Counted from the first letter of the stretch, positions 11,210-42,183 are shown. The stretch is 64,000 nt of DNA from Trichinella spiralis (GCF_000181795.1 NW_003526940.1:903527-967526), one strand, 5' to 3'. Program-made: numbers and translations. Notes: a model not told the origin generated them from the letters alone.

Positions 11210-12420
11210 NNNNNNNNNNTTCTGTTCATTTCTTATCATAATTGAAAATCTTGTTCATCCGCATTATTTGGACAAGTTATCTATGATGTAGATGATGATG
11301 ATGATGGTTATTTGGATACTTTTTCGGTTGATTCAAGTCGAGCTTTGTACAAGGTGAATATTTTCCATCCAGTCCATGTAAAGTTGACAGTCGATGACAA
11401 AATTGGGACGACTAGTTACAATTGAAGAAAGTGCAATTTATTTTACGAATTTATTCTTGCCAATATCCCGACGACGCTGTTTCCACTGACAGTCTGTCTG
11501 TCGATTTTGGACAAATTGAATTTTATTAATTTTTCAAAACAGAGAATGTATTTTTATTCAAATTATCATTTTAAATCAATCTTTTCTTTTTCTGCTTGAA
11601 TAATGATCATGTGAAACGTGAAGCGAATGTGTCTGTGCTTCGCTTGCTTGCAGTAGCGTCGTTGTTGATCGATTGTTGGTTGTACATTAGTGTGTGTGGA
11701 CGAAAAATTCTCCCCCCCCCCCCCCACCCCCGTTATTTAGTTTTGCTTGGTATCGTTGCTAAGTAGCAAATTGGTGTTGAAAGCTTTTCTGATATTTCTC
11801 TGTTGATCAATTGAAATTTATTTGTTGTACAAATTTCACGTGTATTTAAATATGAAGGGAAAATTTTTTTAATTAAATTCACTAAATATTGGAAAGAATA
11901 TTTTTCGCAAAGTATATACAATATTATTTATTTGTTTCTCAAGTACCTCATACAACGGTGAGGTCATGTTGCTCGTTTGTTAGTGCGAATTGCTTCAATT
12001 GACCGACCTTGACGTTCTACCAACTATTATTCGGTGCATTTTGCTGAGAAATAAATGTCAGAAATTAAGGAATCCAGTAGCTTCACAGCAATCCCAATGG
12101 GGCAGCTGTTTTGGGGGCGAATCCTGTTTGTCATTTTATATTTTACAATAATTTTCTATAAGCATTCCCAAAAATACCAGTTGGGGTTCGATTTCTTGCA
12201 TAAATTGTTCATCAATTTTCTCCACTTTGGAACATTTTTCCACCATCTGTTGAATGAACACGAACAAACATTTGTCGAATAATTCAGTTTTATTGACTTT
12301 CTGGTGCATAATTTACTGCAATTGAAAAGCAAATTATTTTTACAATTACAAAACATTTACCTTAGACAATACAGATAGACCAATTTTTCTGTACTTTAAT
12401 TTAATCTTGGCTTTCTGTAG

Positions 12421-15400
12421 GCATTTCTGCCGGCTTGGATGAATTTGTCAAACAACCACAAGGTGAACCGTATTACGTGACTGTTGGAAGTCCGGGTTTG
12501 GTTTTGCCTTGTGTGGTGCAATCGAAATACGCGTCGGCTCCGTATTCGGTTTACTGGATGCGTCTGGTGGACAATACCCCCTATTTGGTGCAGGCGGACA
12601 GCAAATATGAAATTGACCGACACTCTTGCGACAGTTGTTTCAATTTGCGCATCAAAACAGTCGACTACAGTCGGGATAATGGGAAATTTTATTGCCAAAT
12701 TGCCGGACCGGACGGCTTTGCGAGCACGTCGGTCGTGGCCGAGGTGGTGGTGTTGGTGCACCCGCAGAAGCCGACCCTGACCAAGGACCGGGTCGAAACC
12801 AGGGAGGGGCAGTTGGAGCGTTTGCAGTGCGAGTCGATCGGTGGCAACCCGCCGCCCGAGATGCGCTGGTTCTTCGACAACGGTACCGAAGTGACACGCC
12901 TGGCCACTGTGCACAACGCCACTTCCAAAGACAAGCCCACCGTCAGCACTCTGACCTGGCACGTCTCGGCTGACGAGAACGGTCTCCGGCTCGGCTGCAA
13001 AGTTTGGAACTTGGCCATGGGCAAGACCGCGCCCGCCCAGGAGATCTGGAGCCAGCGGTTGCTGGTGCGCTACCCGCCGAAAGTGACCGTCGGGCCGGAT
13101 GCTAGGTACGGAATCGAAGTTGGCCAAGAGGCGAAACTGACTTGCTCGGCTCGGGCCAATCCCCCGCCCACCAGATACAGCTGGCGACGCACCGGCGGCG
13201 CCAGGGACAGCACTTGGACCGAGCAGAACATCTCGCTGACGGTGGAACGCGACGACAGCGGCAGCTACGTCTGCAAGGCGGAAAATGCCGACGGTTCCGG
13301 AGAAGCGACCCTCGACTTGGACGTCCAATACGGACCGGAGTTGGTTGTCGCGGACGAGGTGGTGGTCCAGCAGGGGGAGACGTTGGTGTTGAAATGCGTG
13401 GCCAACGCCAACCCGCCCGCGAAATCCGTACTGTGGACCACGCCCGCCGGCGACACGCATCCCACTCCCACCCTCCACTTGCCCAACGTACGTCGCCAGC
13501 AGGCTGGCAATTACACCTGCACTGCCAGCAACGAGCTGCGTCTGTACGGCGCCGGTTCGCCGACGAGCCGCACCGCCTCGAAACGTACCCGCGTGCTGGT
13601 CAGCCACGCCCCGGGTGAGGCGAGAATTACGGTCGCCGAGCCGGTGTTGGTCGGCAGCACGGTTGTGTTGAACTGTTCCGCCTCGGATCCCGGATATCCC
13701 GCTGCTCGGTTTCGCTGGAAAGCGCCCGGCCAACGCGACTACGAATACGGTGCCAGGTTCTCGTATCCAATATCCGACGTCCAGCTGACCCACGCCGGCG
13801 ATTACTGGTGTCAGCCGTTCAACGACGTTGGCGATGGTCAAGCCAGCAAATACAAGCTCATCGTTCGAGGTAATTGTTTATTTATTTTTAATTACATTTT
13901 TTGGTCTATCAAATCCGCTGTTTTTCTTCAACATTCAAGTGTTGAATTTGTCAACTGGAGCAATACTAATTTTACATAGAATAATGTTGACAATTTTCCC
14001 GGTGAAATTTGATCCACATTTTCAGTAAGATGAGATCTTTTGCTTGTGTTGTCGAATTTTCTTCCATATTTTGTCAAAGAGAGAGGGCTATTTGTTGTTC
14101 TGTTGATGATGTTGCACAGTTTTGAAGCTTGCGTGCGGCAACTGTTGAAATTATTTACAAAGTGCTCAGTGCAGAGTGCTGAAGCTGCACAATGTGCAAC
14201 TGGATCCAAATAGATCGCATGGCGCAATTCAGGTACCATTGGGCCATTGCGTGTTTGTGCAAACAGTTTCGCCGGTGAATGGAAGAAAAATTTACTTTCC
14301 ATTCATTATAGCTGTTTGTTCAAATTTCAATATTGTTCAGTTTGAGCAAATTTTAGGCTGCGCATATTTTGAAGTGAAAATTAATAATAACACAGACAGA
14401 CGGACACACCGATTATGATTCGAATCAGAGATTCTCAATTTTAGCTGAGCGAAAATAATCAGTAATAATAATTTCATTTCAATTTCCTCATTTCTGTGTA
14501 CATCCAATTCTGACCAGTGAACTTATTTATGCAGAAGGAAGATTTTCTTTCCGGCTTCAAATGTCTCTTTCCGACTCTCTGTGCATACACCCGCCTGGCA
14601 CACACGCACATATCATTTTACATTTATTATTACTTATTTATATCATTGATGCAATGATGATATTTATTATTAGTAGAAGATGAGATCTTTGGAAAAGGCT
14701 TTAGGTTTTGAATGTAAAAATTTTTGAAAATTTTCGAAAAGTTTACAAAACGCAATTGCAAAACTTGCAAGCTTGCTAAACTGGTTGGATGTAAGCATTC
14801 ATTCAGTTTTTCAGCACAACAAGAGAAAACGAGGATGCTTTTTCTTCACTTCAAATGAAGCGTTTATTTATTTATTTGTTTAATTTTTCATTCATTTATC
14901 AAACATTCGCACGAACAAGCGGATTGTTTTTCACTTGGAAAATTGAAAAATTAAATACTTTGACAAACATACGTCCGTCTTTGCGCATATTTTTCAATGT
15001 AAATTCTCTTTTGCGTTTCAAATACAGCCAGAGGCGCATTATTTATTCTGCAGTGAAAAATGATGCTTTCGCTTCTTCAATTTTTGATCATTTCTAATTT
15101 TAATACCGCAGATGCAGTTTTTGTCTTGAAGCAACAAAATTTGACGAGAAGAATGATGTTTTCATTTTTTGGGGGAAAATTTTCGAAATATTTTTCTCTT
15201 ACACTGCTCGCAAATTAATCGTTTACTGCACTTTGTGCGTTGTGCTTCAGGCGAAAAATATAATCTACCATTAAAATTTGTTTGGACATCTGTGAATTTT
15301 CTCTGCAGTAGAGATATATATATATATTTTTTTTTGAAACACTTTTATTCCACGTCAAAGTAGAAAATTTCTTTTTATTCTCGCATTTTATTAATAAGAT

Positions 15401-16200
15401 TTATTATATTCTGTTTATTTTTTTTCTCTTCAGAACCTGCTCGTTTGGTGAAAACGTTAAAAAGCGAAGATACGGTGCGAGAGAAGGAAACAAATTACAG
15501 ATTAATTTGTTCAGCTCAAGGGAATCCTGTTCCAAATATCACTTGGTATTTTAACGATCAGCCAGTGAACAGTGAACGTTTTCTCAGCATTTTGGAGCCA
15601 GAGGCCCAGAACTGCGATGTACCGGAGCGCTGTTCGTACAAGGTAAATTTAATAGCACACCAATATTCGATATATTATTATTTCCCACGGTCAAGTGACC
15701 ATTATTGTATTTCGACGTAAACGGTTCCTATTGTACTTGACAACGGGGGTCAAGTTGCAATGTATTTTTACAGGTCAGTAGCAGTTTACAATGGCTGACC
15801 GGCATGCGTTGGAATGACAAAGGCTATTACACGTGCCAGGCTTACAACGGCGCCGGGCGTGCTTCGGAAAGTCGCATGCTGTTGAAAGTGCAACACCGAC
15901 CGGTGGTGGTGAACGATCCCGATCGACCGACCGTTGCAGCACAGCTCGGCCACCGGGCCCGGATTTCGTGCCGTGCCAGCGCCTCTCCGGAGCCGGTGTT
16001 CCGTTGGTACCGCAATGGTCAAGAGTTGAGTCAGTCGAATGTCGACTTCGGATCCACCCAGCAACGAAATCACTCTTTCGACGTATACGAGAACACGTTG
16101 CTTCTGTCCGACGTCCACCAGACCGACCTCGGAGCTTATACGTGCAAAGTGGCTAATCTGTTTGGCGAAGATTCTTTCGTTTTCACCTTGCAACCGAAAA
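12421..16200 (+). CDS. Multi-Ig-domain cell-adhesion protein (nephrin/echinoid-like), partial; exons 12421-13869, 15434-15642, 15774-16200
   Basis: About seven tandem Ig domains with C...W...DxGxYxC signatures (DNGKFYC, DSGSYVC, QAGNYTC, HAGDYWC, DKGYYTC, DLGAYTC) and CESIGGNPPPEMRWF. GT-AG sites are phase compatible. The signal-peptide exon and the 3' (FN3/TM) exons were not located; gap at 16859. Confidence 0.88.
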
Positions 16201-18363
16201 GTAAGTAATTTCTCCTCCACAGTTAGTTGAAGGGTGAAAAAATATTTCTCTCCTCTTTCTTATATTTTATATTTTGCATGCGTACTTTTTTCTTGATGAT
16301 ACAATAATAAAATTAGTCAGCTTGATAACTGGCAACAGCTGGTCAGTTTTGTAGCCATACAATTGGAATTAATTAGCTTGCCCCAAAGCACGTTGTATTA
16401 ATGTGTAGTGTAATTGGGAAATTTTCCACTTTCATCTTGAGAAGATTCGCTGAAACAAGAACTGAGTGGACGGGGAAAAATTGGCCGATGAGAACATTTT
16501 CTTCAACAATCACTATTTTCCATTTTGCAACAAACACAATTGCCTTTAATTATTGTCTTCATTTTGAAAATCTGTTGCGCTTTAATATTTTTATCAATAG
16601 AAATATTTCATGGGAGAGAAGAGTTTTATAGTTGAGATCCAGCAAGAAACATCTTCCAACAATTAGTCTTGAACAATCTCTTGAACTCTGCTTGAAGCAA
16701 TTAATCGATAATTGTTTGTTTCATCATATAAAATTCTATTTATGCGCAATGAGTGACAACATGTTTGAATAGAATTATTATAAATTGAATTTGAAATGAA
16801 AATGGTAAATGAAAAAATTTTCTTTTTTTTATTCCAGGTAACCCATCGACCTGCTTCANNNNNNNNNNACTGAAAAATTACCACCCCAAAGGATGTGATC
16901 CTTTTCGCCTATGCGAGCTTTATTTCAATTTACGATAATTTCCAATTTTATTGACAATCACGTCTTATTGATTTTTATAATATATCTGTTGCAGGCCAAG
17001 TCCATCGCAATTGGTGTACACACAGGCGGCCATTCAGTTACTCTGTTAATTTTTGATTTATAATTTTGCTTTTTAAATAAAATTTTACTTCTGTACTGTT
17101 TGTTGTTACTAATATACTTTTAATTTCTACTTTAAAATTTTTTATATTCTGAAAAATAACTTTTATTGGTTTATACTTTATTCCACTATAATGCATAAGT
17201 GTTGTTCTTTTTGTTTTACTGGTGTATTTCAACTTGTATACGTTGCCACTATAAATAAGTTACTCAGTATGACAACAAGTTTTGCACAATCTGGTAGCAT
17301 CACCCATTTAGAATAAATCAGATACAAAAGTAGAAAAAACAAAGCAGATGAAACAAAATTTTTTTCTTTCGTAACTTTAAATAGTGAAAATGCAAATTTG
17401 ACCTTTTCATCACTTGTTTCTCAACATGAATTTGGCCTTTTCATCGATTGTAAATGAATTATATCTTTTGCCGGCATACTGCTAATTGTTCAGGTAAATT
17501 CTTAATTTTCCCACATTTCAACATAATATTTAAAAGTGAGTTCAACAATTGGCTGAAAGGCTGCATGAATATTGTACGGTTGGCAAAGCTTTTATTTGGA
17601 AATGGCGATGTCATGGAGACTTCGCATAGCCTGTCACTTCTGCCATAAAATTTGTTTTTTCACCGATTGCCAAACCTATGTAATAAAATGGACTAAAAGA
17701 ATGGAGCTTGAATTATCAGGAACCACTAAAATATGGCGTTTTTATATAATAATATATTTTAAATTGCTTTTAAACTATTGTTGTGGTATAAAATTGTCTA
17801 TTCAGACGGAAAACACACGAAAATTGACTAATAGTACAGTAATAGTAACAGATAATCAAGTTGAATAACACACGTATTCGCTGTCGGCAGAATTTTTTCA
17901 TCAGATACATCGCGTAGATTATTTGTTCAATAAAAGTCAAGTGATGTGGATATTTTATGCTAAACAATTGGAACAAGCAAAAGATAGAACTGAAAACCGT
18001 GGGAACTGCATGACATTTGAGATATAAAACCCAGTTTGAAGCAGTTAAGTCTGGCAAATATTTCCTGTTTTATCAAGATACAAACTCACTTACTAATTTA
18101 CCATTTTTTGTGTTCTATTTGTTAATTTTTTATTACCACATTTTATATAGTGTTTCACTTTGGTACAATAAAATACACAACAGCAATTGAAATTGTTCTT
18201 AAAAATGCTACTAATTAAAAAGCATAGAATGCGCAAGTTTATTGTATGCAAAAATTGAAATGCAATGTTTATTTGTACAAAATGATGAGAATATTTGAGC
18301 AATACGATACCTATTCATGATGTTGTGTAATTATCATGTGACCATTTGTTCAACAAGTGTTTG

Positions 18364-19946
18364 TCAAAGTCGTCCGCTGTGCTTCAATAAAATACTCCAA
18401 TATAAAAGGTTGAATACCAAAAAAATAGAAGGAAATATTATTCTTGCGTATTTATCAATGTCGCTAGAAGAGCAGCAATGATGGTTTCGGAATTTTTTTG
18501 TTGACAGTTTTTTAAATGAATTCAAAGAATGCCGTTGAAATCTCGGATATTTCGGTATCGTTGTAGTGGACTGTGGAATTGCAAACGGATCTACCGGATG
18601 CATCCATGTTGATGCATTTAACGACTGAAGAGAAACAAAATTATTATTTTATTTTCTAACCGAATAAATTGAATAAATAAATTTTACTCACCGTCGTGCT
18701 AGTCAGCTTGTCGCATTCACATGGCAGTTCCTCAGTTGTATTCAGTTGGCAAGATGTACTACCTAATTGCCATGGATTCGGAGATGTTTCATGCATTGGA
18801 GGTGGTAGACGATTCAGAGGTGTGAGCAATGAAGGACCTGCAGACATTTGAGCGTCTTCTTGTGCGACTTTTGCAAAAGCGTCTTCAATTTTTTTCTGTT
18901 TCTTTCTTTTGTCTTTGTAAGTGACAAAAGCATATTCAATAAGTGCACAAAATACCATTACGTAGCAGAAACCAAGATATATGTCTACAGCTTTGACGTA
19001 GCTTACTTTCGGCAACTGCCCATTAGTTGTGGTCATCAGTGTCGTCATAGTCAAAACTGTCATAATTCCTAATGTAACTCTAGCCGGAGCTGATTCACGA
19101 CTTATCCAAAATGAAACCCATGAGATCATTACTACCATAAGAGCTGGTTGATAAATCTGTACCCAGTAGAAACTTAAATTTCGAGAAAATGTCAAATGAC
19201 AGGTTAACCTGGAATAATCACCTAAAAATGAAATGATTACTTTATAACATTTAATATTTAAAAAATCGTTACTTTTAGTTAAGCATATTTTAATATACAC
19301 TGCATAATGCACAATTTTTAGGTTATTGCTTCCAACAGGACTAATATTTAAACACATCACAATGAAAGCGTATTGATTATACAACATTACAAATAATGTT
19401 ATCTTTAATACTGAATCAGAAATGGCAAATGAAATACGAATTATTAATCATGACACATTTGATAATTTAAGCCTGTTGATAAATGTCATATTGATGAACT
19501 TCATTTCTTATTAGTAGTTGTTATTAGTTTCATAATATTTCTGTTGGTGATGGTGTCGCTTTCCATTCAAAAAACTACCAATAAATTGTTATTAAAAAAG
19601 AAAAGCAAAGATATAAATGAAAATGCTTCATTTCTTCAGAAACAAAATTGATTTAAATAGCAAAATTTCATTAAACTACTATTAAATTTTTTAACGTTAC
19701 AAATAGATAAAATTAGCACCAATTTTTTAGCAGTAGTAAATTTTACGTGGTTAGCATTACATTAAGACTAAGCTATTTTTTCTTATTTTTGAATGTGTGA
19801 ATTACCTGTACTGAGCGTAATTTTTCGTTCAACTATGAATAAATCCTGTAGCTCAAACGTCGGTAGCTTACGAATTTCAGCATCAAATGTAACAGACTGG
19901 AATCCTTTCAGCCAAAACAATCTTATATCAGCATCAGAGTAACCAT
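18364..19946 (-). CDS. GABA-gated chloride channel, distal alternative C-terminal cassette B (exons 19946-19806, 19221-18692, 18624-18364)
   Basis: Encodes YGYSDADI...TLSTGDYSRL, M1, M2 [21 protein letters not shown]3 and M4 IDKYARIIFP, then a stop. It has no N-terminal exons of its own; its phase-1 acceptor fits shared exon 5, giving a 496-aa product. Confidence 0.9.
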
Positions 19947-20430
19947 CTATGAAAAAACTATTTTTTATACGCAATACAAAAAATCGTAACTTTTTGTGAG
20001 CACCAGTTGAAAAAAGTATCTCTTTGGCATTTTATCAAATTATTATATATTCAAGAAAGATGTGACAGTTTACATTATAGAATATGAAATGCAACTTGAT
20101 TGCCTTGTTAAATAATAAAATGGGCACCTCGAATATTCGAATTCTATTTTTAAATTCTATTATGCCAGTAATGATAGTATTCAAGCTTTCTTTTTAAATA
20201 ATTCAATGGAGTAAATTTTATAAAGAGGAATAATAGATTCATATTCTACGGATTTAATCCCAATTTAGCACTTTTTCATAATATATAATACAGAAAAGTA
20301 AAACTTAGGCAATGAAGATGATTGTTCTTCGCAATGACAATAAGCTCGATAATAAGGATGAATTTTTCACAATTTTTAACGTCCTGAAATATGTTGAAAA
20401 AGACATAATCGGTGGTGAAAAACTTCTGCT

Positions 20431-23430
20431 CTAAACTCTAGAAACTTTTTCATTAATTTCTTGTCGACTAATGAAAAAACATGAAATCCAGTAAACGGCG
20501 TTGAAAAACAAAAAAAATAAAGGAAACATTATTCTTGAATATTTGTCGATGGATGACGGAGTGACGTGATGTAGCATGTGACGACGCAGTTTTGGTCGAG
20601 AGACAATTCGCATAGGCACTGGGCGAATTTGATTCATGTCACAATCACATTCAAGCTGTGACATAGAGAGAGAAGGGCTCATATCGGCATTCGCAAAACG
20701 CTTAGCATTGGGTCGATATTGAGCTCTATTTTTTGCTGAAGAGGTATAAGGGTAATATGATGATCGGGGTGCAGATCCCTGTAAAGTGAAAAGGATTTAT
20801 TAAAAAAAATCAAATTAGTTATATTCATCAAGGAATAATCATGCGTGACACTTTCATATTAAAACATTTTGCTAATTCATAAGATTCATCATTTTATACT
20901 TTATTTGATTCATTAAGAAACAGATTTTTTTTCTGCTTGCTAGCTGATAAGATACGCTAAGCTTATATTAAGTGGACAATAAAAAACAAATTTATTTTAT
21001 AAAATGTTGAAGTTTCTGCTTTTCATAAATCAAAATTACACATTTTCAAAAGTTATAAAAATATTTTATAAACAATTTTTTTTCATTAAAAAGCAGCCAA
21101 TTGCTTAAACGTTAATTAAGCAGTAACTATATATCGATTATTGATAATTGTGAAAATAATAATAATAATAATATTTGAAGCAAATTATAAGAAGAAATAG
21201 ATGAAGCAGCAACTTACAGAAGATACGAAAGATGCCATCATTGGATCGGCAGATGATAAAATCCCAGAAGAAGACAAAGGTGGAGGCATATGTTGAACAG
21301 TTTGTTGCTGCTTTCGGCGTTCTTGTTTCATTTTAACTTTTTTGTTCAAGTAACTAACGGCAGCATATTCAATCAATGAAGCAAAGACCATAACAAAACA
21401 TGTCCCCAAATATATATCTATAGCTTTTATGTAAGATACTTTTGGCAAGCTTGCATTAGTAGTGGTCATTAGTGTAGTCATTGTTAACACTGTTGTAACA
21501 CCAAGAGCGACACGAGCAGGTGATGCATCACGATGAATCCAAAATGAGACCCAAGAAATTATGACAATCAGCATTGAAGGAATGTATATTTGCATCATAT
21601 AAAATCCAATGTTACGCACGAAAACAAATTTTACATGGAGTCGGGAATAATTGCCTTAAATTAAAATTTTTGAAACAAACAAATTCACTATTTTATTGCT
21701 TTACATGATAAGTTTGTGCTATTTTAAAGAAAGCTGTTACTATAATCTACATTTATTATTCATAGATGAATAAGTTAAAAGAAAAACATTTTACCTGTAC
21801 TTAATGTTATTGTTCTATTCTTCATTGTAAAATGTGCCACATAAAATTGTGGTAAAAATACTTCGTCCATTGTTACAGTTTTGTTTTCAAGCCATCTATA
21901 TTTTGTGTCTGCTTCAGAATAACCGTCTATAAAATGAGAACAGAAGTGTGTCACTGAAAAAATCTGATGCTACTTTGTTGCCAGCTTTTTTTGTGCTTCA
22001 ACAATGTACAAAGCGAGCAGGGTGGAGGTAAACAAAAGTGAATACCGCGTTCAGCGGTTTACGAGCATTAAAAATGGGAAAAATATCATCACCAAAACTA
22101 CCGTCTTACTGTAAACAGCGCTGAAACAGAACTAATTTTCTTATTCTCAGGATTTGACGTTACTGTGCAATATTCAACTGGTGCACCACAAAGTGATAAA
22201 ATAAAAACGAAATCTACAATGCATGTGTCTAATTGTTTCTACTTACAGCTTTCAATTTCCAAGGTGCATTCTTGGGAATCCAAAGGAAACAAATGTAGCA
22301 ACATTGGACAAGATGCAGTTACAGTTAATCTTAAATATTAAATTGTAGTGTTGTTGATTTCACATAAAAATAAGAACAGATAAAAAAAAATTCAATATTA
22401 CTTACCTCTGACTTGTGAGAACTTCACCACTGCCTTTTATTCGAAGAAAACTGTTATGAGTAGTAGCCGTGTGCATGTAGGATTTCTTTTCATTGGGAAA
22501 AAATGTATCTGGCACCCAAATATCTTTTGTGTATTCCCAACCTACGGTTAGTTCCTCCTTTGCACCGAGTCTTTTTATATTTAATCTGGGATCCATCCAA
22601 TTTTGTCGAAGATAAAAATCAAGTGTGTAATCCTAAAAATAAATTATAATATATACAAATTGAAATACATAAAAAGCACTTAACAATACAAGTGATGAAA
22701 TATGCAGGTAAAATAAATTTGATTCATTCATATAACTTGAAAAGTAATTGTATTATCTGTTTGTTGAAAATGTTATTTATATCAATAAAACTGCCAATCA
22801 TGGAGTTTGATAATTTAATTTTCAGAGAAAATAAAACTTTTTCATACAATTTACATGGTGTTCATGAAAGTACAACTCACCATTTCTACCTCTGATACAG
22901 CACTTATACTGGACACATGCATCGTTATGCCAACATCAACAGTTCGTCCTTAAAATTATGAGTTCGTATTTTTTAAGAAAACGTAAAAAATACAGAAATT
23001 ATACCTCCATAATTTGGTCGTAATCTTTTGTCATAGTAAGTTTTATTGACAAGGATGTTCAAAATGTGAGTAATATTTCTTGATAGCTCACTTACCCTGA
23101 AAAATGTCCACTTGAATAAATTCAAATTTAATTCTTGCATAATTAGGGCAATTCTTAGAAATTCTTGTAAGCAGCATTTTAAAAAATATATACAGTTTTC
23201 AATAAATTTCGTTATAAAAAGGGTTAAATTTATATTTAATATTATTAAAATAGTATATTATTACTCTAAATAAATTTGAATTCATTCCTAAAATATTTGA
23301 ATTCAATTCATTTTCATTGATAAGCCAATAATTAAACTTACCCGTGAATTTCGGATGATGTATAACAATTAGAAACGTCTGAGAAAACAAAACAAAAAAT
23401 TATGGTTAATAAAATTCGTTTTTTCTTCAT
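20431..23430 (-). CDS. unc-49: Cys-loop GABA-gated chloride channel subunit, UNC-49/RDL family. Shared exons 23430-23342, 23096-23005, 22948-22881, 22632-22406, 22329-22247, plus proximal cassette A 21926-21795, 21654-21218, 20778-20431
   Basis: Signal peptide [49 protein letters not shown], Cys-loop [20 protein letters not shown], and anion-selective [16 protein letters not shown]. All splice phases are consistent, giving 491 aa. The symbol rests on family motifs and the shared-N/alternative-C layout. Confidence 0.9.
22173..22192 (-). promoter_or_regulatory. Candidate intronic RNA docking site complementary to 19993-20011
   Basis: Pre-mRNA UUUGUGGUGCACCAGUUGAA pairs with UUCAACUGGUGCUCACAAA: 12 contiguous Watson-Crick pairs, a 1-nt bulge, one G-U pair and 6 further pairs. 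Confidence 0.65.
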
Positions 23431-26400
23431 TTAAAATTGCTTCCAAGATGCAAGAACTTGCGAAACTGCTCGTGGTAACAGCCGACGGTGATGTTCATAA
23501 TAGAAATGTAAGCATTGTAATCAATCAAGACCCTTCTGATGCCAGCGTTGCTTTTCTTTATTGACAACATAAAAACCTAAAACAACAAATTAATCCTGCT
23601 CAGCTTCCTTATGAAAAGAATCAAGCGAACGACAATATGATTGAGAATTAGTGCATTAAAGTTTTATGCGACAGGTGTAGCATATCTCTGAAATGTAATA
23701 TTCAATTTTTCACAAATCGCACGAATATGAACACGAATAAATTAGAACAAACAAAGCAAGAAAAACATGAAATTATTTCACATGAAATGATCAACTGCCA
23801 TAATTATCAGTTTCAGGAAGTTTCCTCAACTGCTACAGTTAATACAATAACACTGACAAACAGTAACTGTTAGTATTATTTAATAAAGGGCAAATAGATT
23901 AGTGAGCAACTGATATAAGTATACGAAAGCAAAAGTGCATATCTGCTGGTAAAAATATATCATGCTCATGAGGTGGATAATTCTTTCAATAAGCTACACT
24001 AAGCTCTTGCCAATTTCAAAAAGGATATCACAGATATTCCAGTAGACGGATCATTTCATATGGGTAATTTCAGCTCATTTGGAAAATGACAAATAAATCT
24101 ATGAATACATTTCTCATTATTAAACCGGAAACCATTAGTTGAAAAATTAGTAAAACTTGAAGCGGTAAACAAGAGCTTTTGAAACAGATGAAGGCGTTGC
24201 AAAATCACAACTATCTTCCGATTTATATTGAACGATTGATTCAGCAAAGCGCAAATAATTGAAATGAGTAAGCAACGCCGGCCGGCAGAGGTGGATTTAT
24301 TCATTCTAGCCAATTTCCAAGAAAGAGAATGTCAAATCAAATTTATGCAGCATTTAAGTAGTGCTTGATTCTTTCTTTCCACAAGCGCACTCTGGCGACC
24401 AAAGCCGTTCACCAGACCTCTCTAACCGCTTAGCATATTATTATGGGGGACAAGATGTATTCTCCCTTTCTCTCTTTTCTCCCTCTCTTGCTTTCATTCT
24501 TTTTTTATCACTTTTTTCTTAAATTAAATTTTCCATGCACAAATTACGCTGTCATCGCTTTGGCAATTTTTAAGAACAATTCTTTGAATTGACTGATAGC
24601 ACGGCATTTGCATTTTGCCAATAATAATTTCAGAAAATAATACCCCATCAGTCATGGCAGAGGTTCGTGAAAAATGTTCTTCAATGCTTGTGGATCAATC
24701 ATTGATTTGAGCCGAAAAGAAAATTGGACAAAACGTCAGTTGGACAAAATTACAGAATTGATTTTCGGTATAAGAAGAAGTGATGTTTTCATAATTAATA
24801 ACCTCTTCCAAAGGCAAAAAACATTTCATTATACAGTCCATCTTTTTGGTATTAATACTACTTTGAAATTATTGATAATGCTTTTCAATTAAACACAACA
24901 TGCAACAAAATCAAAAAAGGAAGATTACATCGATTAAAGTTTAAAATCTTTTATGCACTAGCATTTTTTGCATTTATTATCAATTTCTTGAGTTTTGACA
25001 AGAATGTTATATTAAAATTTGTTCATGATGATTTTTTGTGCATGCATAACAGTATGCATGTTGTGCAGTTTTCTTCGCTTGATATTAAAAGTTCAGAATA
25101 CATGAACAATATTAAAGAAAACCTATGGGAATTAATATTAATATAAAAGTAAATTCAATTTTAAAATTATTTATTGCTGCATAAGATAAATTTGTTGATT
25201 ATATACATCAATGAAACGATGCAAATATGAAAAACTGCCCTCCTCCAAAGCAAAGTTGAGTATATAGACAGTTGTTTAAATGAACACATGACAGCTTTGC
25301 CATATACCTGACTATCGTGTTCAGTGAGAAACAGCTGCTAATTATTTAGAAACAATGACAAAGTATTCATTCACTGGCTATTGCAAAAGCGGCGAAACCA
25401 AGTTGCGCATTTCAAAGCTATATTGACAAATAGATAATTCCAACACCAACAATCTGAACATGAAACACTTTACCATGTTGTCATATAAGCTGAAGATAAA
25501 TGCTTTGATTTTTCAGATATTTTCTTTGTAAACATGATTGACTATGTAACTGATATTAAATAACCAACTGCATATGCTTTGTTGTTTATTATTAAACTAT
25601 ACTTTGTTAAGTTCGTTTTTTTCTGCAAAATTTGAAAAGTGAATTAACAGAAGAACCTCTTGATTTTTTTCCATTATAACAAATTTACTTCTCCTAGTAT
25701 AAAATTGCATTTCTTCTTTTCGCATTTTTCTACTTTATTGCATATGATGAATAATTTGTAAATTATTTTACTTGCAATAATTACATTGCTTCATTAAATT
25801 TCATATGACATGGTTCAGCAATCAACTGATAAATTGGTAATAATTGAGCAAGATTTTATTGTGATGATTATTATTAAATGGCGCTTTAGAAAATTCAATT
25901 TTTCAAATTTTATTAAATTCTTGTTCTAATATAAAATTTTAATTTCATCCAATGCACATCAATTGATTCAAATTGTCCTTTTACACGCCAATTCACTTTT
26001 TTTCAAAGATTATTGATTACCACTTTAGATTATTTTTTTGGTATTTTTATTTTATCAGGGTAAAGAAGTTTTTATTAACAGATTTCAGTTTCAAAAAAAA
26101 TGCGTTAAAATAATTCAAAATTAAATTTCGCTCAATTTCTTGTCTTATATTTAATATTTGTAATTGTTTCAAAAATATCAAACAGAGAAAAAGATATTTT
26201 TAAATGGAATTTATTTAGAAAAAACTTTAGTTGTTGAAATAGCAATTTTAAAAAGTATCAATGAAGGGTAAAATTTAAAGCCAAAAATTTGCTTCCATTT
26301 TACATAACATTAAATTACATGGACATTCAATTATTGATTGATTACTGACTAAATTATTTGCACAAATGTAAGCCAACAATGAAAATATTTTCTGAAAAAA

Positions 26401-28580
26401 AAAAGAAAAACAAAGAAACTCAACAACTGTCGAACAAAGTGTTCTATTGGAAAATTGATAATTCTTTGTTTAAATAATTAAATAAAGTTACATTGTAATA
26501 TATATAGTAGGGGTACTAAAAAATCACAACTTGCAGTTGTAGATTATTATTATTATTAAATTGATTATGAATCTCGATTGTTTTCTTAAAATTTAAAATG
26601 GAAGATTTCAGCAAAGATTCATCTGAGAAAAGGAGAAATCTTTCCTATATTTGACATCGACTCATTTTCAAAATGACATTAGCTGTCGCCAAGTTCAGAC
26701 ACTTGAAGTAGTGGTGAAATTTTCACAAAATTCGATCATTTCCTTCAGCTTAAGTGGAAAATAACCATATATCATAGTTATGAATATATTTCTTGGAACT
26801 CCCCTCGGGGAAATGTAGAAAGAAGTGTTGAACGACACCGATGACTTTCACTCTCTTATTCTCAGAGGAAATGAAATGCAAAATTCCGAATCATTTAGCA
26901 CATTTTCAAAGTACATGATATAAAAACAGAAATATTAGAAACTTCTTCAAAAAAACAATAGAAATATCAGGGAACAAATATAATCTGCATAAATCATTTT
27001 TATGTGTCCAGTTTATGTCTTCATAAATATCCGAAAAATGCTTTCATCGAACTCTTTACTGCATTTTTAATCAAATAATTTTAAAACTATTTATTATTTC
27101 AAAATTAAAATTGTACTTCTTTATCTTATTGCTCATTAAAATACACATAAATCAAACTTTAAAAAATGCGTGAATTTAAAACTTAACAAAAATAAAAGCT
27201 TTTGTAAAAATGCTAATTCCACAAATTAATACTACTTCATTTGTTTTATTATCAAAAATTGTATTATTAAACTATTTTTCATTAATTTGTACTGTAATTT
27301 AAATTAATATTTTACAAAAAACAAAACAATGCTTGATAGAGGAGACTTACAAAAATTGGACAATTTCGAAATTGACGTTTCTATAACTGCTTGAAGGAAA
27401 CGAAATTTAGTGAAAGAACAAATTTGCAAATTTAATTTTTGCCAAACTAAACCTCGTCTGTCAGTGATTCCCGACAAGTGGCAAAGTGAACAATTGACTG
27501 ATGCAAAGTGTGAAAGCAGTTTCAAGCAGTGAAGAAACAAATAATTGAAAGCAAATGCTCCAAGCATAAAAAGCCCCACTGGTAACGCACAAATTATATA
27601 TATACTGCGGTATTACATTTGTTTTAAATAGCTAAGAATTTCAGATGAATGATGCTTGCTTAGCAAATTTTGACTAAACAAACTGGCCATTTGATTGAAT
27701 TTGTTTAAAACTAATTGCACGTAGGTTGAATTAAATTTGATAAATTAATCATACTGAACTCATGAAATTGATGAAATCTCATCAATTTCATGTCATACGT
27801 TCGTCACAAGATGTTTCAAACAAATTTTATGTGAAAATCACATTTTTCTAATCAACAACACTTGTTGATCAGTTGACAATTATTTAAAATTTCATTATAT
27901 TTCTTACAAAAATCTGCATAAAAAACATGTCTCTTGCACTGCTTTACTTTATGAAAATCTGTACAGCATTGAATATTGAACATTATTGTTCAGTATTATA
28001 ATACACATTACCAATATATGGATAATACGTGAAAAGTAATACAATTTTTATTTATTATACTTGTATGTTTAAATTTCATCGTTATTTAAAGTTTTAAATT
28101 CTTCTAAATTTGTGCTTAAAGTTTTATAACAATTGCGTTTTAATTTAATTCATTTACAAATATCAGAAAATTATTCCAAGACTGTTCAGTTTCAAAAATC
28201 TTTCAACACCCTTAAAATTCGTGTAGCAAGAGATGAGTAAAACATAGTCCTGTAGTTACGTCGAAACTGCAGATCAGTTATTAATAATCAGTTAATCATA
28301 CGTTTTTTGCATACTTATTTATATTTTTTATATTTCAGAATTATATTACAAATAAATGAACAATTGTATAAAAGATGAATTTGCATTAGTAGAAAATAAC
28401 ATATTAATAAATTATATTTAAATTCAGTCGTGTTTTATATATTTTTTCTTGATATATTTTTCATAAATGTAATATGAACCTTTTCAGATACTGTATCATT
28501 ACAGTATTCTATAGTAAGCTAGTGAGCCGTTGGTTTATAGCCAGCTTACTAAATTCTGGTTATATACTTATTGCTTAAAA

Positions 28581-30176: not shown

Positions 30177-32113
30177 ATGGAAAAATTGAAACAAATATTT
30201 TATTGCAAGAAAATATTATTTCTTCAAGCAAATTTTTTTGAATTTTTTTTATAGATTTTTAAGGAAATCTTAGTCAAAGAATAGAATCTACGTCGTAATT
30301 GAAATTTGCAAAGTGAGTGTTGTATTGCAGTTGGAAAAATGCATGGAAAGTTTTTGATTTTGTAGTTGTTTTTGAATAAATTTTATTTTCCTTTTTGTTT
30401 TGCATATGAAATTCCAAAAATTAATTCAGCTGGATGGAGAAGACTGATTCACGACAACCAACCCATTGATAATTATAATTTAATTTATTTATGGAAAGTT
30501 GAAATCTTTACTGCACAATAACGAGTAGAATGTACAGTAAAGAAAACAAATAATTTCAGTTTTCTGTCAAGTATTTCGTTTAATAAGATAAAATAAGTTG
30601 TGAAAATTTCAATAATTTCATAAATATTCAATGAAAAAAACGACAACAAATAAATTACTTGGTTAATAATAAGTCGTACTTGATTTTCGTTTTAGTGAAA
30701 TGTTTTTTGAATATATTTGAAAATTTAGGTTGATGAAGAAAATTTTACGAAAAGATGTTCAATTTGCATAAATGCAGGTGCTGTTGATGAATGGAAAATT
30801 TGTGTAAAAATGTCACCGAGTGATCTATCAATGTTGGAACGGAATTTGATGGTAAACAGAATTTGTCGTCCGACATACGTTATGTGTTGGTTATCTGATG
30901 ATGGCAGTGTTCAAAAATATTGTCGGTTGAAAACTTTTGAAAGATATACAATATATATATATGTATCTATGTATGTAAGAACAATTGGTGAGATAAAAGT
31001 TTGAGTTGTTTCTGAACCGAAAACCAACTCTAACCTTTATTCACACCGACGGTTCAAACGGCAAAATTCGATTTGAATACATTATCAGCGAATTTTTAAA
31101 TTTCAACTTCAAGTATTGACAGTGTGAAAGCAAAACCGGCTCGCATTCAGGTTATTGTTCAATGTTTAAAATCAACGCAATCAAAAAAATCCCTCCAGCA
31201 ATATTCATGGTTAATTTACCCAAGTATGGACAAGAATACATTAGCAGTTTTTTTTTAATTAATTTTCTCTTCCTCATCATCATATATTTGTACATATATA
31301 TTGGTTAATTTCGTTGATTTTGGTATATTTTCAAAAATCTACTAGGCACGTTACAAACCAAAGTTTGGAACGCGCCCTTTTTTGTTTATCAGCTCGCGGC
31401 TACAGTTCATCGATGAATAATCGATTTTTACAGCTCGTAAAATGTGCTGGGCTTGTCGAGCTTGATGATTCGACGTAAAGCATCGATGACGTTGTTCACG
31501 TTCCACGTGAACAATTACATTTTTCATTTTATAACACACGTTATTTAAAGATTACTTTGAATGAACTTGCTTGACTTTTTATTTGAACTTATTACTGTAT
31601 AATTGTTATTTTTTTTCCTTCCTTGTTATTGTTGTTATTATTGTTATTGTTGTCGTGGGTTGGAAAATTTTCAGGTCGCCAGATGTGCACTTTTGGTGTC
31701 GTATCGGCTGCCCATCTCCGCCTTTGACCGTTGCGTTGGCAGTACGACCTGCTGAACCATTTTCCCAGACGGTAGCCGGGCAGTGTGGCGCCATCTGGCG
31801 GAAACCTGCTTCTCGTTCCTTGCCGGTTGATTGACTACAGACAAACCGGACGAGTGTTTGCCGGTAAAAATTATTACTTCTTCTTCTTATTATTCTGCTT
31901 CTTCTTCTTCTTCTTATTCTTGTTGTATTCTCACGTCTTCCATCGACTGCAGCTTGTGATCCTCAGTTTCGAGGATAATAAATACCATTATTGTGCATGA
32001 AAATCAGTTTAATCGAGCAAATGTTATGACCAGCACCAGTTCGGATGTGGAATTGAGTTTCCGCTCTTTGGTAAGCTGATCGATCGATCCGTCTTGGACG
32101 TTTGCGGCAAAAG

Positions 32114-35100
32114 ATGGAGATGTCATCGTCAGGCGGTGGTGCAACGTGGCGTCGTTGTCGGCCCCGTTTCGACTGTCTGGAAAAATACCTGAACCGCGGC
32201 TTCCGGCTCTACGCGGCCTGGGTGTGCCAACACCCGTGGCCGTTCATCGTGGTTCCGGTGCTGCTGAGCGTGGTGTTGTCGGCCGGTATCCCGTACCGGC
32301 ACGTCTTGTACAGCGCCTTGTACTTGTACACACCCCAAGATGGTACCTCGAAATACGAGCAGCGGGTTTTCGAGCAGACCTGGCCCCAGACCAATACTAC
32401 CTTCCAGCCGAGCAGATCCGTGATCGACTTGCGCCAGTGTCAAGTGATCGTCTCGGCCAGGGATCATGGAAATGTCCTCAGGCCGGCACTGAGCAAAGCT
32501 GTACTCAGGCTGAACGACTTCATCGTCAACGACATTGTGGTGAGTTGTCAACTTTTTTCCTCTATATAATTCAATATCCGAAGAAATATTCATTCTTCCA
32601 CTGGTATCTAGTGCATCTAGAGTGGGGGATAGGCGTGTAAAAAAGTAGAAACAATAATCTCTTTGAACTTTTCATTCAAATCAATTGTAATTTTTTGGGA
32701 TAATTCTCCTTTTGAACTTGTCAATTTTTGTCGATTTCTTTTCAATTTTCATCAAATTATTAATTTACAAAAATTTTGTGGCCGACTGATAATTTTAATA
32801 TTTAAATATTTCAATTTGTATTTTACATTTCGACGAACATTTCTCGTTTCCTTGCACAATACACAAAACGGGTCCATTCATTTGAACATGATTAACTGAA
32901 GCGTGAATAAAAACAGCTTGAATTGGACGAATTGTTGTTTATTTCCTATTTTTTTTTCGTCGTCGTCGTCGTTGTAGTGGTGGTGGTTGTGGAAAAATTC
33001 AAAAGTCCAGTCTGCGGTATATCAAATTTTTTGCCATTTCAATTCAGACGGTAAAATTATTCGACAACTAAATTACCGGTTGAATTTGGTCTTTGCTTTA
33101 ATTTTTTCCTAATTGATTTTCAAGAAAGTTTCATGCTGTAGTTGGTTGGTTGGAAAAATTTTATGAAAAACATCAAAAATATACATATACCCCATCCCAT
33201 TGATTGATTGGAAATGTTTTGCATATTTGAAATTTTACAAAAAAAAAATAGGACGAAAATAGAATTGCAATGAATCATTATTTTCTTATTTCTTTCAAAC
33301 AAATGAATTACTGTAATTTTTGTTTTTTTTTTCTTTCTCTTATTTTCTTAATTTAACAATTCAAATCAAAACAGATCACATTTTGACATGCTTGAAAATG
33401 AATCAGTCGTTTGTCAAATTTATTTACAATATTACCAACTTGTCAAGCGATCGTTTATTTGCTTCGTTTGAAAGTTGTTTTCTTGTCACGGTTGTTGCTA
33501 ATGCTAATGACCATTTTGCACATCCATCCACATGTGGATGCATTTCAAAATTTTCCCCTCCTCCGCTGACTTCTCTTCTTTTTCGTACAATCAATTCACA
33601 AAAGTGGACAACTTTTTTTTTCTTCTTCCAATATATATTTTATATATTCAAATATTTTATATTAAAATGTGTCAAAGAGTATCTGGGTCGCATTTTGCAC
33701 ACCAATAGCTGAAAATGTTGCACTAGTGCACTTTTGACACTGAAACTCATTCTCCATTTCCGTTTGACACTAATACTTTATCGAAGAAAATGCCATCAAA
33801 TAATAATAGTTTTGTTTTGAATAAAATTGAATTAAAAATATATATAATAAAATGATATATTACATCATATAATAAATATACTTTATTATTTTTTTTAAAG
33901 GTTGATCTTAGATCTGATAATTTTCTTTTGCTTTTTCCTGTTTTATTAAAATGAACAGAGGTTGTTGCTATTCTGTTTGTTGTCAGTCATCTTTTTCTTC
34001 TTCTCTGGTTGTAAATTTCATTCTAATTCGGTTAATGGACAATAGAGAGAGGCAGGCAGGGGGAGGGGTACTTGACAATTTTCATTTGAACAGAAAAATT
34101 TTCCCAATTTCCCCCGATTGTAATTTTCCTGAAATTGCACAAAACGGACGATTATTATTCAAAGTGTTAACGTGTAATTTATTACATTGAAGAACAAAAT
34201 ATTAAAAATATATTCTTCTTTCAAATCAGATCAATAGAACAGGTTCCTCCAATCCAACAATTAATTTCAAATTTAATCATTTTCTTCTAAGGATAATTTT
34301 TATTTTTCCAATATTATTTGTTAAATTTGGTTGAAAATTGACTGATTAATTAATTAGTACATACAAACAAACAAGTAAAGTCTTTTTCATCTTCTAAGAT
34401 TGAAAATGATGGTATTACATATGGGTACAAAGATTTGTGCTTGAATACGAACAATTTTTGTTACACCAATCCACAAGTGGCCATAATTAGTCAAATGTTC
34501 GCCGAACCGAATCCGTACGGCAATTTGAGCTATCCGACAGCCACATTTGCCAACAGTCGTATATATTTGGGTTTGACATTGGGCGGCGTCGAATTGGATC
34601 CTATCAGTGGTCAAATTGAACAAGCCAAAGCTTGGTTTTTGATTTATCAGCTTCGTTTTGACGGTGAATTCGACAATTGGCTCAGTTCCAAGTGGGAATT
34701 GGAATTCGAACGTGCACTGCTCCATTACAAGGACGAGATGTTGCAGTTGACCGTATTCCATTCGCAGACGTTGGATTTGGAATTGTCGAAAAATAGCGAC
34801 TACATGATGCCGAAAATGTCGTTGATGTTCATGTCGTTGATTATATTCGCCACGTTGTGCGCGGTAACGTTCATCTGGGACCAGGACGGTCTACCGTGGG
34901 TCGACTGGACCCGAAGTACGCCGCTTCTCGCTTTTGCCGGTATTGTCGGAGCTGGCATGGGTGTGGCCAGTTCTATCGGCTTGCTCAGCATTTTGGGAGT
35001 TTCTTTTTGCGAAGTGATCGGTGTTATGCCCTTTTTGGTTATATGTAAGTTTTCGGAATTTAGAATTGAAAATTTTTTACCAATCATTATTCTTGTTACA

Positions 35101-37127
35101 TGCAATTCACGTCGTTCACATTTTTTCACACAGCTGTCAGATTGGACAACACATTTTTGATGACGTCGTCGTTGTTTCATACTAAACGATCGGCACCGGT
35201 TGCCGAGAGAATTTCCGAAGCGATGGGCGATGCGGCCGTCTCCATCACCATCACCGTACTGACCGATGTGCTCAGTTTCGGCGTCGGATATTTCACCAGC
35301 TTCCCGGCCGTGCAGCTTTTCTGCACGTATACTTGCGTGGCGATGATCGTCACGTTCATCTACCAGCTGACATTTTTGCTCGGCTTGCTCGTACTGCATG
35401 CTCGCAACGAAGCTCGAGCCAAGCACTGCTTGATGCCCGTGATCAAAACCTACACCGTCAAAGAGACGAAAAGTAGAAATATACTGGTGCGGTTGTTTTG
35501 CACCGGATCGTCGAGCAGCAACGTCAAAGAATCCTGTTCGACGACAGCCACGAACTGCGACAACGGTTACATTCACAGGCTCAGTGCCGAGAAGCCAACT
35601 GGGGTCGGGGTCGGCGTTGAATGGGACCATTGTCACGGGCCGGTGGCCGAGTTCAAAGCCAACGCCCAAGAAGGCACTTGGATCAGTCGAGGTTTCCGCA
35701 ACTATTTCGCCCCGTTCCTGATGAAACCGTGGACCAAAGCCGGCATTGTTCTACTCTATTTGATCTATTTGGGCACGTCGATTTACGGCTGCATCGGTTT
35801 GAAAGAAGGTCTCGAACCGGTCAACTTGCTGGTCAGCGATTCGTACGCCATCAATTTCTACCGCGATTTGGAACGCTACTTTTGGCACATCGGAGTCCAA
35901 GTCCAGGCCAGTTTCAACAGGCCGGGCAATTTGAGCGATCCGTCGAATCGGCTCCAAATTTACAACATCGTCCAAGAGTTCGCCAACAGCCCGCACGGTA
36001 TGGGCGAAGAGGGATTGGAATTTTGGCTTTACGAATTTCAACAATTTTTGCCCAAATACAACGGCCTTCATGTGGACGATTTGGACGAGAGGCGATTTTA
36101 TGAAAATTTGGAAGCATTTTTGCAATTTACCGAAAATCGACGATTTGCCAACGACGTTCTTCTCGACTACGACTACGACTACGACGAAGAATCTCCACCG
36201 TCACCATCGGTGGACAATGTCCAATTGCAAAGCTTGAATCGGTCGTCGCGCTCGACCATTCTTAACCCGGATGTGAAGAAGACGACCACGAGGAGGAGGA
36301 GAAGGAGGAGGAGGATCGTCGGCGTCAAGGCGTTTCGACTGATGATCGGCATCAAGAAGTTCGCCACCGCCCTCGACCAGACCGAAACTACCACCATGTT
36401 CCGCCAGTTGGCCGAAAAACATTCCAACTACAACATTACCACTTTCCATTACATTTGGCCGTTCGTCGACCAGTACATCGAAGTGTTGCCCAACGTGCTG
36501 CAAGAAGTCTACTCAGGAATGGCTTGCATGGTTCTGATCGCGCTGCTGTTGATCCCCCAGCCGCTCTGCTCAGTTTGGGTGACGCTGATGATCGCCTCGA
36601 TCGACATCGGCGTCGTCGGCTACATGACACTGTGGAATTTGTCCATGGATTGCGTGTCGATGATCACGTTGATCATGTCGATCGGCTTTTCGGTCGACTT
36701 TTCCGCCCACATCGCCTACGCGTACACGGTCAGCCAGGACAACGCCCCGTTGGATCGGATTCGCTTCGCACTCGGCAGTCTAGCCTGGCCAATCATCCAA
36801 GGTGGTCTGGCGACCATACTCGGCGTGCTCGTACTGTCCGACGTCAATTCGTACATGGTCAAGGCGTTCTTCAAAACTGTACTCTTGGTCATCCTGATCG
36901 GCGTCGTCCACGGCATCGTCTTCTTGCCGGTCTTGCTCAGCATAACCGATTTCAAAATTTGGCGCACTCTGATAACGCCGAAAGTGTCCACCGACCACCA
37001 CCACCACCACCACGACCATACGACCAACAAACGACACTCGAATCCCGGGCTCGAATTGCCCCAAGAGTCGGCGTTGCCGAAGACGAGCAGCAAAAATTGC
37101 TCCATATTCACCGTCACTGAACGATGA
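32114..37127 (+). CDS. Patched-related (PTR/PTCHD) sterol-sensing RND-family membrane protein; exons about 32114-32539, 34399-35044, 35134-37127
   Basis: HPWPFIVVPVLLS N-terminal TM, LYTP, sterol-sensing domain (VMPFLVI...DNTFLM...AAVSITITVLTDVLSFGVG...FPAVQLFC), second half SIGFSVDFSAHIAY and FFKTVLLVILIGVVHGIVFLPVLL. The start may extend by a short exon at 32026-32070. Confidence 0.93.
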
Positions 37128-41633: not shown

Positions 41634-42183
41634 TTATTATTGTGTACATTTTTGTTCATTAGCTGTTCGTCGCTTTGTTGCAGTTTCAGCTTTATAAAAA
41701 TTATTGCACATTACGAAACAATGACTTTTTTGTCTTCATCATAGTGTTGCTATTAACAATTAAGCTTCATTTCACACGAGTCAATATTGAATTAGAATCA
41801 AGGCACCCGGGCGAAAATTGAATTTCAGGCACCGCCCGCCTTGAATGAACATGTTTGAAAAATGTCTGTAATGAGACAATTTATACTAATAGCCTCTTGG
41901 CGACCATTTGTTACGGTTCATTTTACTGAAAAATCCATCAATGTGACAGTGGTGGTTGGTGGACGGCTAATTTATCTTCAAGTTGCAATAGAAAAATATG
42001 GAATTGGGCCGATGTTGAGATTTTGACAATTTTCCATCATCAACCAGATGTCCATTGTTTCACGTGTGATAGCAGTGTGCATATACGGATCTTGAGTTAA
42101 CGACCGTTTTGCTCTGCGGGCAGTGTCCGGTCGACGAAGCCAAAAATCGATCGCACCGTCGGAAGCTGGCTAACAACAGTTGC

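What the first reader, a model, noticed from the sequence alone, without database searches (positions are those of the whole stretch)
18364..23430. One N-terminus, two complete alternative C-terminal halves (unc-49-type compound locus)
Seen: exon 5 ends ...GAA AGC T|gt. Both 21926 (AC GGT TAT) and 19946 (AT GGT TAC) complete the Tyr of ESYGY in the same phase. Each cassette has three exons with matching phases and its own stop. Only about 480 bp separate the A stop from the B acceptor, so B has no room for its own 5' exons. Established: C. elegans unc-49 splices a common N-terminus to three C-terminal repeats. Inference: a two-cassette version here is either the ancestral state or an independent duplication. 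Automated annotation would probably fuse or split it.
Basis: partly seen in the sequence, partly recalled or inferred. Interest (0 to 1): 0.72.

Follow-up and report, generated by a model that had tools for sequence, protein, structure and literature searches.

The report
Trichinella two-tailed unc-49 GABA receptor
One GABA-receptor gene of the parasitic worm Trichinella splices a shared front half onto either of two complete back halves, and the second is likely the counterpart of the worm-model subunit UNC-49C, so this gene layout is probably far older than the species where it was described.

Summary
The window holds the Trichinella spiralis unc-49 locus on the minus strand. Five shared coding exons (186 codons plus one base) splice to cassette A (491-aa product) or cassette B (496 aa). 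The 22247→19946 join is in spliced contigs of 3 of 4 runs laid; 22247→21926 is in all 4. No third cassette was found. Public gene models mostly fuse A and B (22 of 33 retrieved); none gives the correct N+A form.

The architecture is known (C. elegans unc-49), and a T. spiralis unc-49 has been reported. What this adds is which cassette is which. B groups with UNC-49C (99/97 in two trees, 87/93 without M2), shares its 6′ methionine and is likewise the last cassette. A is RDL-like and cannot be assigned to 49A or 49B. The same two-cassette order appears in Trichuris and Soboliphyme models. So the compound locus likely predates the split of clade I from Chromadorea (about 0.8); one AU test does not exclude independent origins (p=0.11). 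B keeps channel motifs that UNC-49C lost, so it may gate on its own (untested). Verdict: real, a new variant of a known kind, moderate interest.

The parts
27351..27540 (-). Non-coding first exon (5' end approximate)
   Evidence: Loose ends of X7/X8 contigs at 23576 (169 and 191 nt) match 27356-27376; GT donor at 27350.
23342..23576 (-). Exon with 5' UTR and start codon (ATG 23430), signal-peptide-like N-terminus
   Evidence: Contigs cover 23341-23576; the frame gives a basic-then-hydrophobic N-terminus also used in 8 deposited models
23005..23096 (-). Shared coding exon 2
   Evidence: Joints; tblastn to UNC-49
22881..22948 (-). Shared coding exon 3
   Evidence: Joints
22406..22632 (-). Shared coding exon 4 (binding loops D, A, E)
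   Evidence: Pfam PF02931 E=2e-13; joints
22247..22329 (-). Shared coding exon 5 (Cys-loop, loop B Glu); its donor at 22247 is the switch point
21795..21926 (-). Cassette A exon 1 (rest of loop B, loops F and C)
   Evidence: Joint 22247->21926 in 4 of 4 runs
21218..21654 (-). Cassette A exon 2 (M1-M3; PAR motif, 2' Ala, 6' Thr, RDL-like)
   Evidence: PF02932 E=3e-39
20431..20778 (-). Cassette A exon 3 (intracellular loop, M4, TAG)
   Evidence: contig 3' ends at 20323 (X7) and 20268 (X8)
19947..20430 (-). 484-bp spacer: 3' UTR of A and acceptor region of B; no N-terminal exon copy
   Evidence: one X1 contig runs through it to 19917
19806..19946 (-). Cassette B exon 1 (rest of loop B, loops F and C)
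   Evidence: Joint 22247->19946 in contigs of 3 of 4 runs
18692..19221 (-). Cassette B exon 2 (M1-M3; PAR motif, 2' Thr, 6' Met as in UNC-49C)
   Evidence: PF02932 E=3e-36
18364..18624 (-). Cassette B exon 3 (M4, TGA); AATAAA at 18273 and 18243
   Evidence: B2-B3 joint in 5 raw reads and 3 contig sets

Best explanation
This is the Trichinella spiralis unc-49 gene: one donor at 22247 is spliced to either of two tandem three-exon cassettes, giving two GABA-receptor-type subunits with the same N-terminus, and the downstream cassette is likely the orthologue of the UNC-49C repeat. Shown: both splices, separate stops, separate 3' ends for A in two runs, and the same cassette order in Trichuris and Soboliphyme models. 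Inferred (mechanism): choosing the near acceptor, with cleavage in the spacer, gives A; skipping 2.3 kb gives B. The two subunits share loops D, A, E and the loop B Glu, and differ in loops F and C and the whole pore, so mixing them in a pentamer would tune GABA potency and pore block, as UNC-49B/C do. Inferred (history): the partial duplication happened before Dorylaimia and Chromadorea split, and UNC-49C diverged strongly later. Predicted: A forms a picrotoxin-sensitive, RDL-like chloride channel; B lowers picrotoxin block through its 6' Met.
For: Splicing. Family: N-terminal tree; same break as C. elegans isoforms; five shared exons as reported for D. immitis (10.1101/2025.10.30.685166). 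B with 49C: IQ-TREE LG+C20 99/97 with far outgroups (48 rows) and without them (33 rows); 87/93 with M2 removed and the longest 49C row left out; FastTree 0.95 on 81 rows. 8 exclusively shared residues against at most 3 for any other pair of the 7 groups, and 1 for A with B. 6' Met in 6 of 6 clade I second cassettes and 7 of 9 UNC-49C, in 0 of 54 rows of the other five groups. AU rejects clade I A+B as one clade: p=0.043 and 0.019. A and B are only 59% identical over loop B to M3, and 15 of 23 fourfold sites differ. Both B and 49C are the last cassette.
Against: Forcing 49A+49B+49C into one clade (independent triplication) is not rejected, p=0.109. The 49C stem is long (1.1-1.95 changes per site), so attraction to B is possible. 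The AU p-values are borderline. The alignment has only 179 columns. A's position is unresolved: A+49A+49B p=0.031 versus 0.26; A+49A 0.077, A+49B 0.33. The B junction was not seen in raw reads (0 of 41 laid), only in contigs, with 29 letters on the short side. Contigs do not show full-length molecules. Trichuris and Soboliphyme order comes from automated protein models, not DNA. No Enoplia sequence was identified. No channel function was tested.
Confidence: 0.8

Rival explanations
1. Same splicing, but an independent duplication in clade I: B resembles UNC-49C by convergence (a relaxed, modulatory last cassette) or by long-branch attraction.
For: Independent chromadorean triplication is not rejected (p=0.109). 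49C is a long branch. A 6' Met also occurs in a few unrelated subunits (P0131, P0362, P0448, P0470). Duplication at this interval has happened separately in insect Rdl exon 6.
Against: Clade I A+B monophyly is rejected twice. B+49C survives removal of M2. The equally long 49B stem is not attracted. 8 exclusive shared residues versus 1 for A+B. Identical break point.
Confidence: 0.15
2. B is a separate or decaying gene fragment, or is translated only as part of a fused N+A+B protein as most database models have it.
For: 22 of 33 retrieved Trichinella-type models fuse A and B. One X1 contig reads through from A into B exon 1.
Against: The exon-5-to-B joint is in three runs at word depths similar to the A joint (70.5/82.4, 25.1/19.5, 45.1/20.3). 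No joint from the cryptic donor near 20481 that several fused models use was listed in any of 4 runs. B is intact and 73-82% identical to its Trichuris and Soboliphyme counterparts.
Confidence: 0.03
3. The ancestor had three cassettes (or two full tandem genes) and clade I lost one, so the two-cassette state is derived rather than ancestral. This is compatible with B being the 49C orthologue.
For: 49A and 49B are not sisters with support in any tree. In Romanomermis a C-type cassette follows its own distinct exon 4-5 type, and a second model holds two exon-4 copies, hinting at a longer original duplication.
Against: A+49A+49B is not rejected in the 33-row set (p=0.26). The Romanomermis models are fragments from automated annotation and their DNA was not seen.
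Confidence: 0.3

Closest known systems
C. elegans unc-49 (UNC-49A/B/C; also H. contortus, D. immitis)
   Same: Common N-terminus spliced to tandem C-terminal copies (review PMC8841521, passage read). Same break after LEIES-Y. Five shared coding exons as in D. immitis. Last cassette has the 6' Met. ERRS agonist residues of PMC6287672 are present by inspection.
   Different: Two cassettes, not three. A is not assignable to 49A or 49B. B keeps PAR, YGY and TTLMT where UNC-49C has PSR, YAY and THLMT, so it is much less derived.
Nematode avr-14 (GluCl alpha3, AVR-14A/B)
   Same: One gene with two alternative C-terminal channel regions (PMC8841521); also gives fused models (P0358 looks like one; the avr-14 label for it is my recall).
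   Different: Glutamate-gated family; in P0358 the repeat begins later, at the pre-M1 segment; not orthologous.
Insect Rdl (alternative exons 6a/6b)
   Same: The alternative exon covers loops F and C (PMC4019635). In Tribolium isoforms 9 of 10 differences fall in the interval matching A1/B1. Cassette A is 62-63% identical to RDL over the aligned cassette.
   Different: Only one exon is duplicated and the pore is shared. RDL exon-6 variants show no one-to-one match to A1 and B1, so this looks like a separate event at the same place.
Nematode LGC-38
   Same: RDL-like GABA subunit, 60% identical to cassette A over the aligned region.
   Different: Single C-terminus in the retrieved proteins; its N-terminus forms a separate clade (100/99).

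Membership tests
unc-49 compound locus | One N-terminal exon set spliced to alternative tandem C-terminal repeats | tested here: met
   Both joints from donor 22247
unc-49 compound locus | Break inside loop B, at the Tyr after LEIES | tested here: met
   D. immitis description
unc-49 compound locus | Shared N-terminus orthologous to UNC-49, not LGC-38 or RDL | tested here: met
   Tree, moderate support 90/73
unc-49 compound locus | Each repeat complete (loop C, M1-M4, own stop) | tested here: met
unc-49 compound locus | Three repeats (A, B, C) as in C. elegans | tested here: not met
   Two only: tblastn over the window; no third acceptor or loose end at 22247; no clade I model with three. A 10-N gap at 16859-16868 remains unseen.
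UNC-49C subtype (cassette B) | Groups with UNC-49C repeats | tested here: met
   99/97, 87/93 without M2; one AU alternative not rejected
UNC-49C subtype (cassette B) | 6' Met in M2 | tested here: met
   linked to picrotoxin resistance in the passage read
UNC-49C subtype (cassette B) | Derived PSR / YAY / THLMT motifs of rhabditid UNC-49C | tested here: not met
   B has PAR, YGY, TTLMT
UNC-49C subtype (cassette B) | No homomeric GABA response; modulates the heteromer | not testable with these tools
   Needs oocyte expression
UNC-49A or UNC-49B subtype (cassette A) | Groups with 49A or with 49B | tested here: inconclusive
   Unresolved in all trees; AU p=0.077 and 0.33
GABA-gated chloride channel (RDL-like) | Cys-loop, ERRS agonist residues, PAR anion motif | tested here: met
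   Sequence inspection against the table in PMC6287672
GABA-gated chloride channel (RDL-like) | GABA-evoked chloride current; neuromuscular location | not testable with these tools
   No functional data

The most novel reading that the evidence does not exclude
The shared-N-terminus unc-49 locus with a dedicated C-type modulatory tail is as old as the split between clade I and chromadorean nematodes. Trichinella, Trichuris and Soboliphyme keep a two-cassette, near-ancestral form whose C-type subunit still has intact gating motifs and would form a picrotoxin-resistant channel by itself, a living intermediate on the way to the non-gating UNC-49C.
Probability: 0.3. Interest if true: 0.62.

Novelty: new variant of a known kind. 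Interest (0 to 1): 0.43.

Why it matters
It dates a textbook compound gene to near the root of nematodes and identifies the UNC-49C-type tail as an ancient part. It offers a natural, less-derived C subunit for asking how a gating subunit became a purely modulatory one. In practice it gives the correct subunit models for the likely muscle GABA receptor (the piperazine target in other nematodes, per PMC8841521) of Trichinella and whipworms. Database models there are mostly fused and often lack the signal peptide, so cloning from them would fail.

Tried and rejected
No whole genome is held, so the N gap at 16859-16868 and other loci could not be searched. No run is on record as an RNA holder; the spliced contigs were judged from the lay itself.

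Ideas tested and dropped:
- A1/B1 correspond to Rdl exons 6a/6b: not supported.
- A fused N+A+B protein: no supporting joint.
- A third cassette in the window: none by tblastn; the six-frame HMM part of that script failed and was not repeated.
- B has its own 5' exons: none in the spacer.

Computation limits: a full 81-row IQ-TREE run timed out; reduced sets of 48, 48 and 33 rows were used, chosen by me to cover groups. The A+49B test on the 48-row set did not finish and was run on the 33-row set. No fold or complex prediction was run, because a pass would follow from likeness to solved pentamers.

Literature: Bamber 1999, Bamber 2005 and Williamson 2007 are not held. Williamson 2007 may already describe the T. 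spiralis splice forms. Seven library searches showed no paper on the clade I cassette structure; passages were read in eight papers, and only PMC3990606 states that T. spiralis has unc-49. Supplements of the bioRxiv preprint were not seen. Earlier scan findings: none.

Full report
What is there. The window is AT-rich nematode DNA. The exon translations match Trichinella spiralis database proteins letter for letter over the cassettes (P0320 = XP_003381645, P0325 = KRY32773). On the minus strand, five shared coding exons run from ATG 23430 to a donor at 22247 (559 nt, 186 codons plus one base). Cassette A is 21926-21795, 21654-21218, 20778-20431. Cassette B is 19946-19806, 19221-18692, 18624-18364. 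All introns are GT-AG. The joined frames give 491 and 496 residues with one terminal stop each. Pfam finds the ligand-binding domain in exon 4 and M1-M3 plus M4 in each cassette. A and B are 129/333 identical overall and 85/144 from loop B to M3; 15 of 23 fourfold sites differ, so the duplication is old. The spacer from A's stop to B's acceptor is 484 bp and holds no N-terminal exon copy; tblastn with 10 homologues finds no third cassette in the window. The next gene downstream is a convergent Ig-domain gene beyond a 10-N gap.

Expression. Four runs were laid on 17000-26000. The joint 22247->19946 is in contigs of X1, X7 and X8 (word depth 70.5, 25.1, 45.1); X8 carries a different organism label. 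The joint 22247->21926 is in the same three (82.4, 19.5, 20.3) and in 4 raw reads of X18. X18 gave only 41 reads from 18% of the run: none spans the B junction, but 5 span B2-B3 and 2 span A2-A3, nearly all oriented as a minus-strand transcript. All internal introns of both cassettes are spliced. A's contigs end at 20323 (X7) and 20268 (X8), which suggests its own 3' end; in X1 the A contig continues to 19917. The intron before A1 is retained in contigs of all three runs (32, 5.9, 30.8). No joint supports the cryptic donor near 20481 that several fused models use, and no loose end at 22247 points to a third acceptor. Contigs show presence, not whole molecules or levels.

Annotation. Of 33 Trichinella-type models retrieved (only 15 of 22 members of one cluster were listed), 20 are N+A+B fusions, 2 are A+B fusions, 6 are N+B, none is N+A and 5 are fragments. 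Many start at an upstream ATG and lose the signal peptide. Models from Trichuris suis, T. trichiura and Soboliphyme baturini show the same order of two cassettes.

Family. C. elegans unc-49 splices a common N-terminus to three tandem C-termini (PMC8841521, passages). Its isoforms diverge at the same Tyr. D. immitis has five shared exons (10.1101/2025.10.30.685166, first part and passages). The window's N-terminus groups with UNC-49 N-termini (90/73), apart from LGC-38 and RDL. PMC3990606 (passage) states that T. spiralis has unc-49, citing Williamson 2007, which I could not read. So the gene and its architecture are of a known kind.

Which cassette is which. Cassettes were cut out of retrieved proteins with a profile and aligned (179 columns). 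Clade I second cassettes, with Romanomermis P0079, group with UNC-49C repeats at 99/97 in a 48-row tree with vertebrate outgroups and in a 33-row tree without them. With M2 deleted, other outgroups added and the longest 49C row left out, support is 87/93. They share 8 exclusive residues; the next best pair of groups shares 3, and A with B shares 1. The 6' Met is in 6 of 6 clade I second cassettes and 7 of 9 UNC-49C, and in none of the other 54 rows. Holding clade I A and B together is rejected at p=0.043 and 0.019. Against this reading: holding 49A+49B+49C together is not rejected (p=0.109), the 49C stem is long, and a 6' Met occurs sporadically elsewhere. Cassette A is slow-evolving and unplaced: A+49A p=0.077, A+49B p=0.33, A+49A+49B p=0.031 or 0.26 depending on the set. 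I put B = 49C at about 0.8. The ancestral number of cassettes (two or three) stays open.

How it likely works. Shown: alternative acceptor choice from one donor gives two subunits. Inferred: the choice is coupled to cleavage in the spacer, and the two subunits co-assemble as UNC-49B/C do. Both carry the ERRS agonist residues tabulated in PMC6287672 (passages) and the PAR anion motif, so both are predicted GABA-gated chloride channel subunits. A has an RDL-like pore (2' Ala, 6' Thr) and is the likely principal subunit. B has the 6' Met, which has been suggested to give UNC-49C its picrotoxin resistance. Unlike rhabditid UNC-49C, B keeps PAR, YGY and TTLMT, so it may still gate alone. That last step is a prediction from sequence only.

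Related systems. avr-14 has two alternative C-terminal regions. Insect Rdl swaps exon 6, covering loops F and C (PMC2064938 and PMC4019635, passages), in the interval matching A1/B1, but its variants do not map one-to-one on A1 and B1. Passages of PMC4945070 and PMC9306661 added nothing on clade I.

Verdict. The finding is real and confirmed by spliced sequence. It is a two-cassette variant of a known compound locus. The added value is the likely deep orthology of B to UNC-49C, its less-derived state, and corrected gene models. Interest 0.43.

Noticed in passing
window 23570-23427 (minus strand), 5' UTR of the gene: A 47-codon upstream ORF ends in a TGA that overlaps the main ATG at 23430. Its translation is unchanged in deposited models from T. 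zimbabwensis, T. pseudospiralis and T. papuae over the 14-40 residues they include, and annotators often mistook it for the N-terminus. It may be a conserved uORF or a relic signal exon.
   Followed up: partly
window 22246-21927: The intron between the switch donor and cassette A is retained in contigs of all three contig runs (depth 32, 5.9, 30.8), which may reflect slow splicing at the choice point.
   Followed up: no
window 23341-24347 and 20430-19917: Run X1 has an unspliced 5' extension to 24347 (possible second start) and read-through of A's 3' UTR into B exon 1.
   Followed up: no
Proteins P0001, P0079 (Romanomermis culicivorax) and P0385: P0001 holds two tandem copies of exon 4. One groups with the Trichinella shared exon (97/84); the other groups with the N-part of P0079, which precedes a C-type cassette. 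P0385 is a further C-type cassette-only model. The duplication unit may be longer in this lineage.
   Followed up: partly
Proteins P0357, P0198 (Ixodes), P0199 (Rhipicephalus), P0200 (Amblyomma): Tick RDL-like models contain two or three tandem copies of the M1-M3 segment: possibly alternative pore exons or fused neighbouring genes.
   Followed up: no
Protein P0132 (Ridgeia piscesae): An annelid glycine-receptor-like model with two M1-M3 modules.
   Followed up: no
window 12405-16259 (+): Multi-Ig-domain gene, GC-rich, convergent with unc-49 across the N gap.
   Followed up: no
window 32075-37124 (+), 41255-41659 (+), 2088-2450 (+): Patched/sterol-sensing-domain gene upstream on the other strand; a Sof1-like exon; a DUF1759 (likely retroelement-derived, from recall) fragment next to an N run.
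   Followed up: no
49A-type cassettes in the alignment: 7 of 15 UNC-49A-type cassettes have Leu rather than Thr at M2 6', so pore-block variation is not limited to the C type.
   Followed up: no
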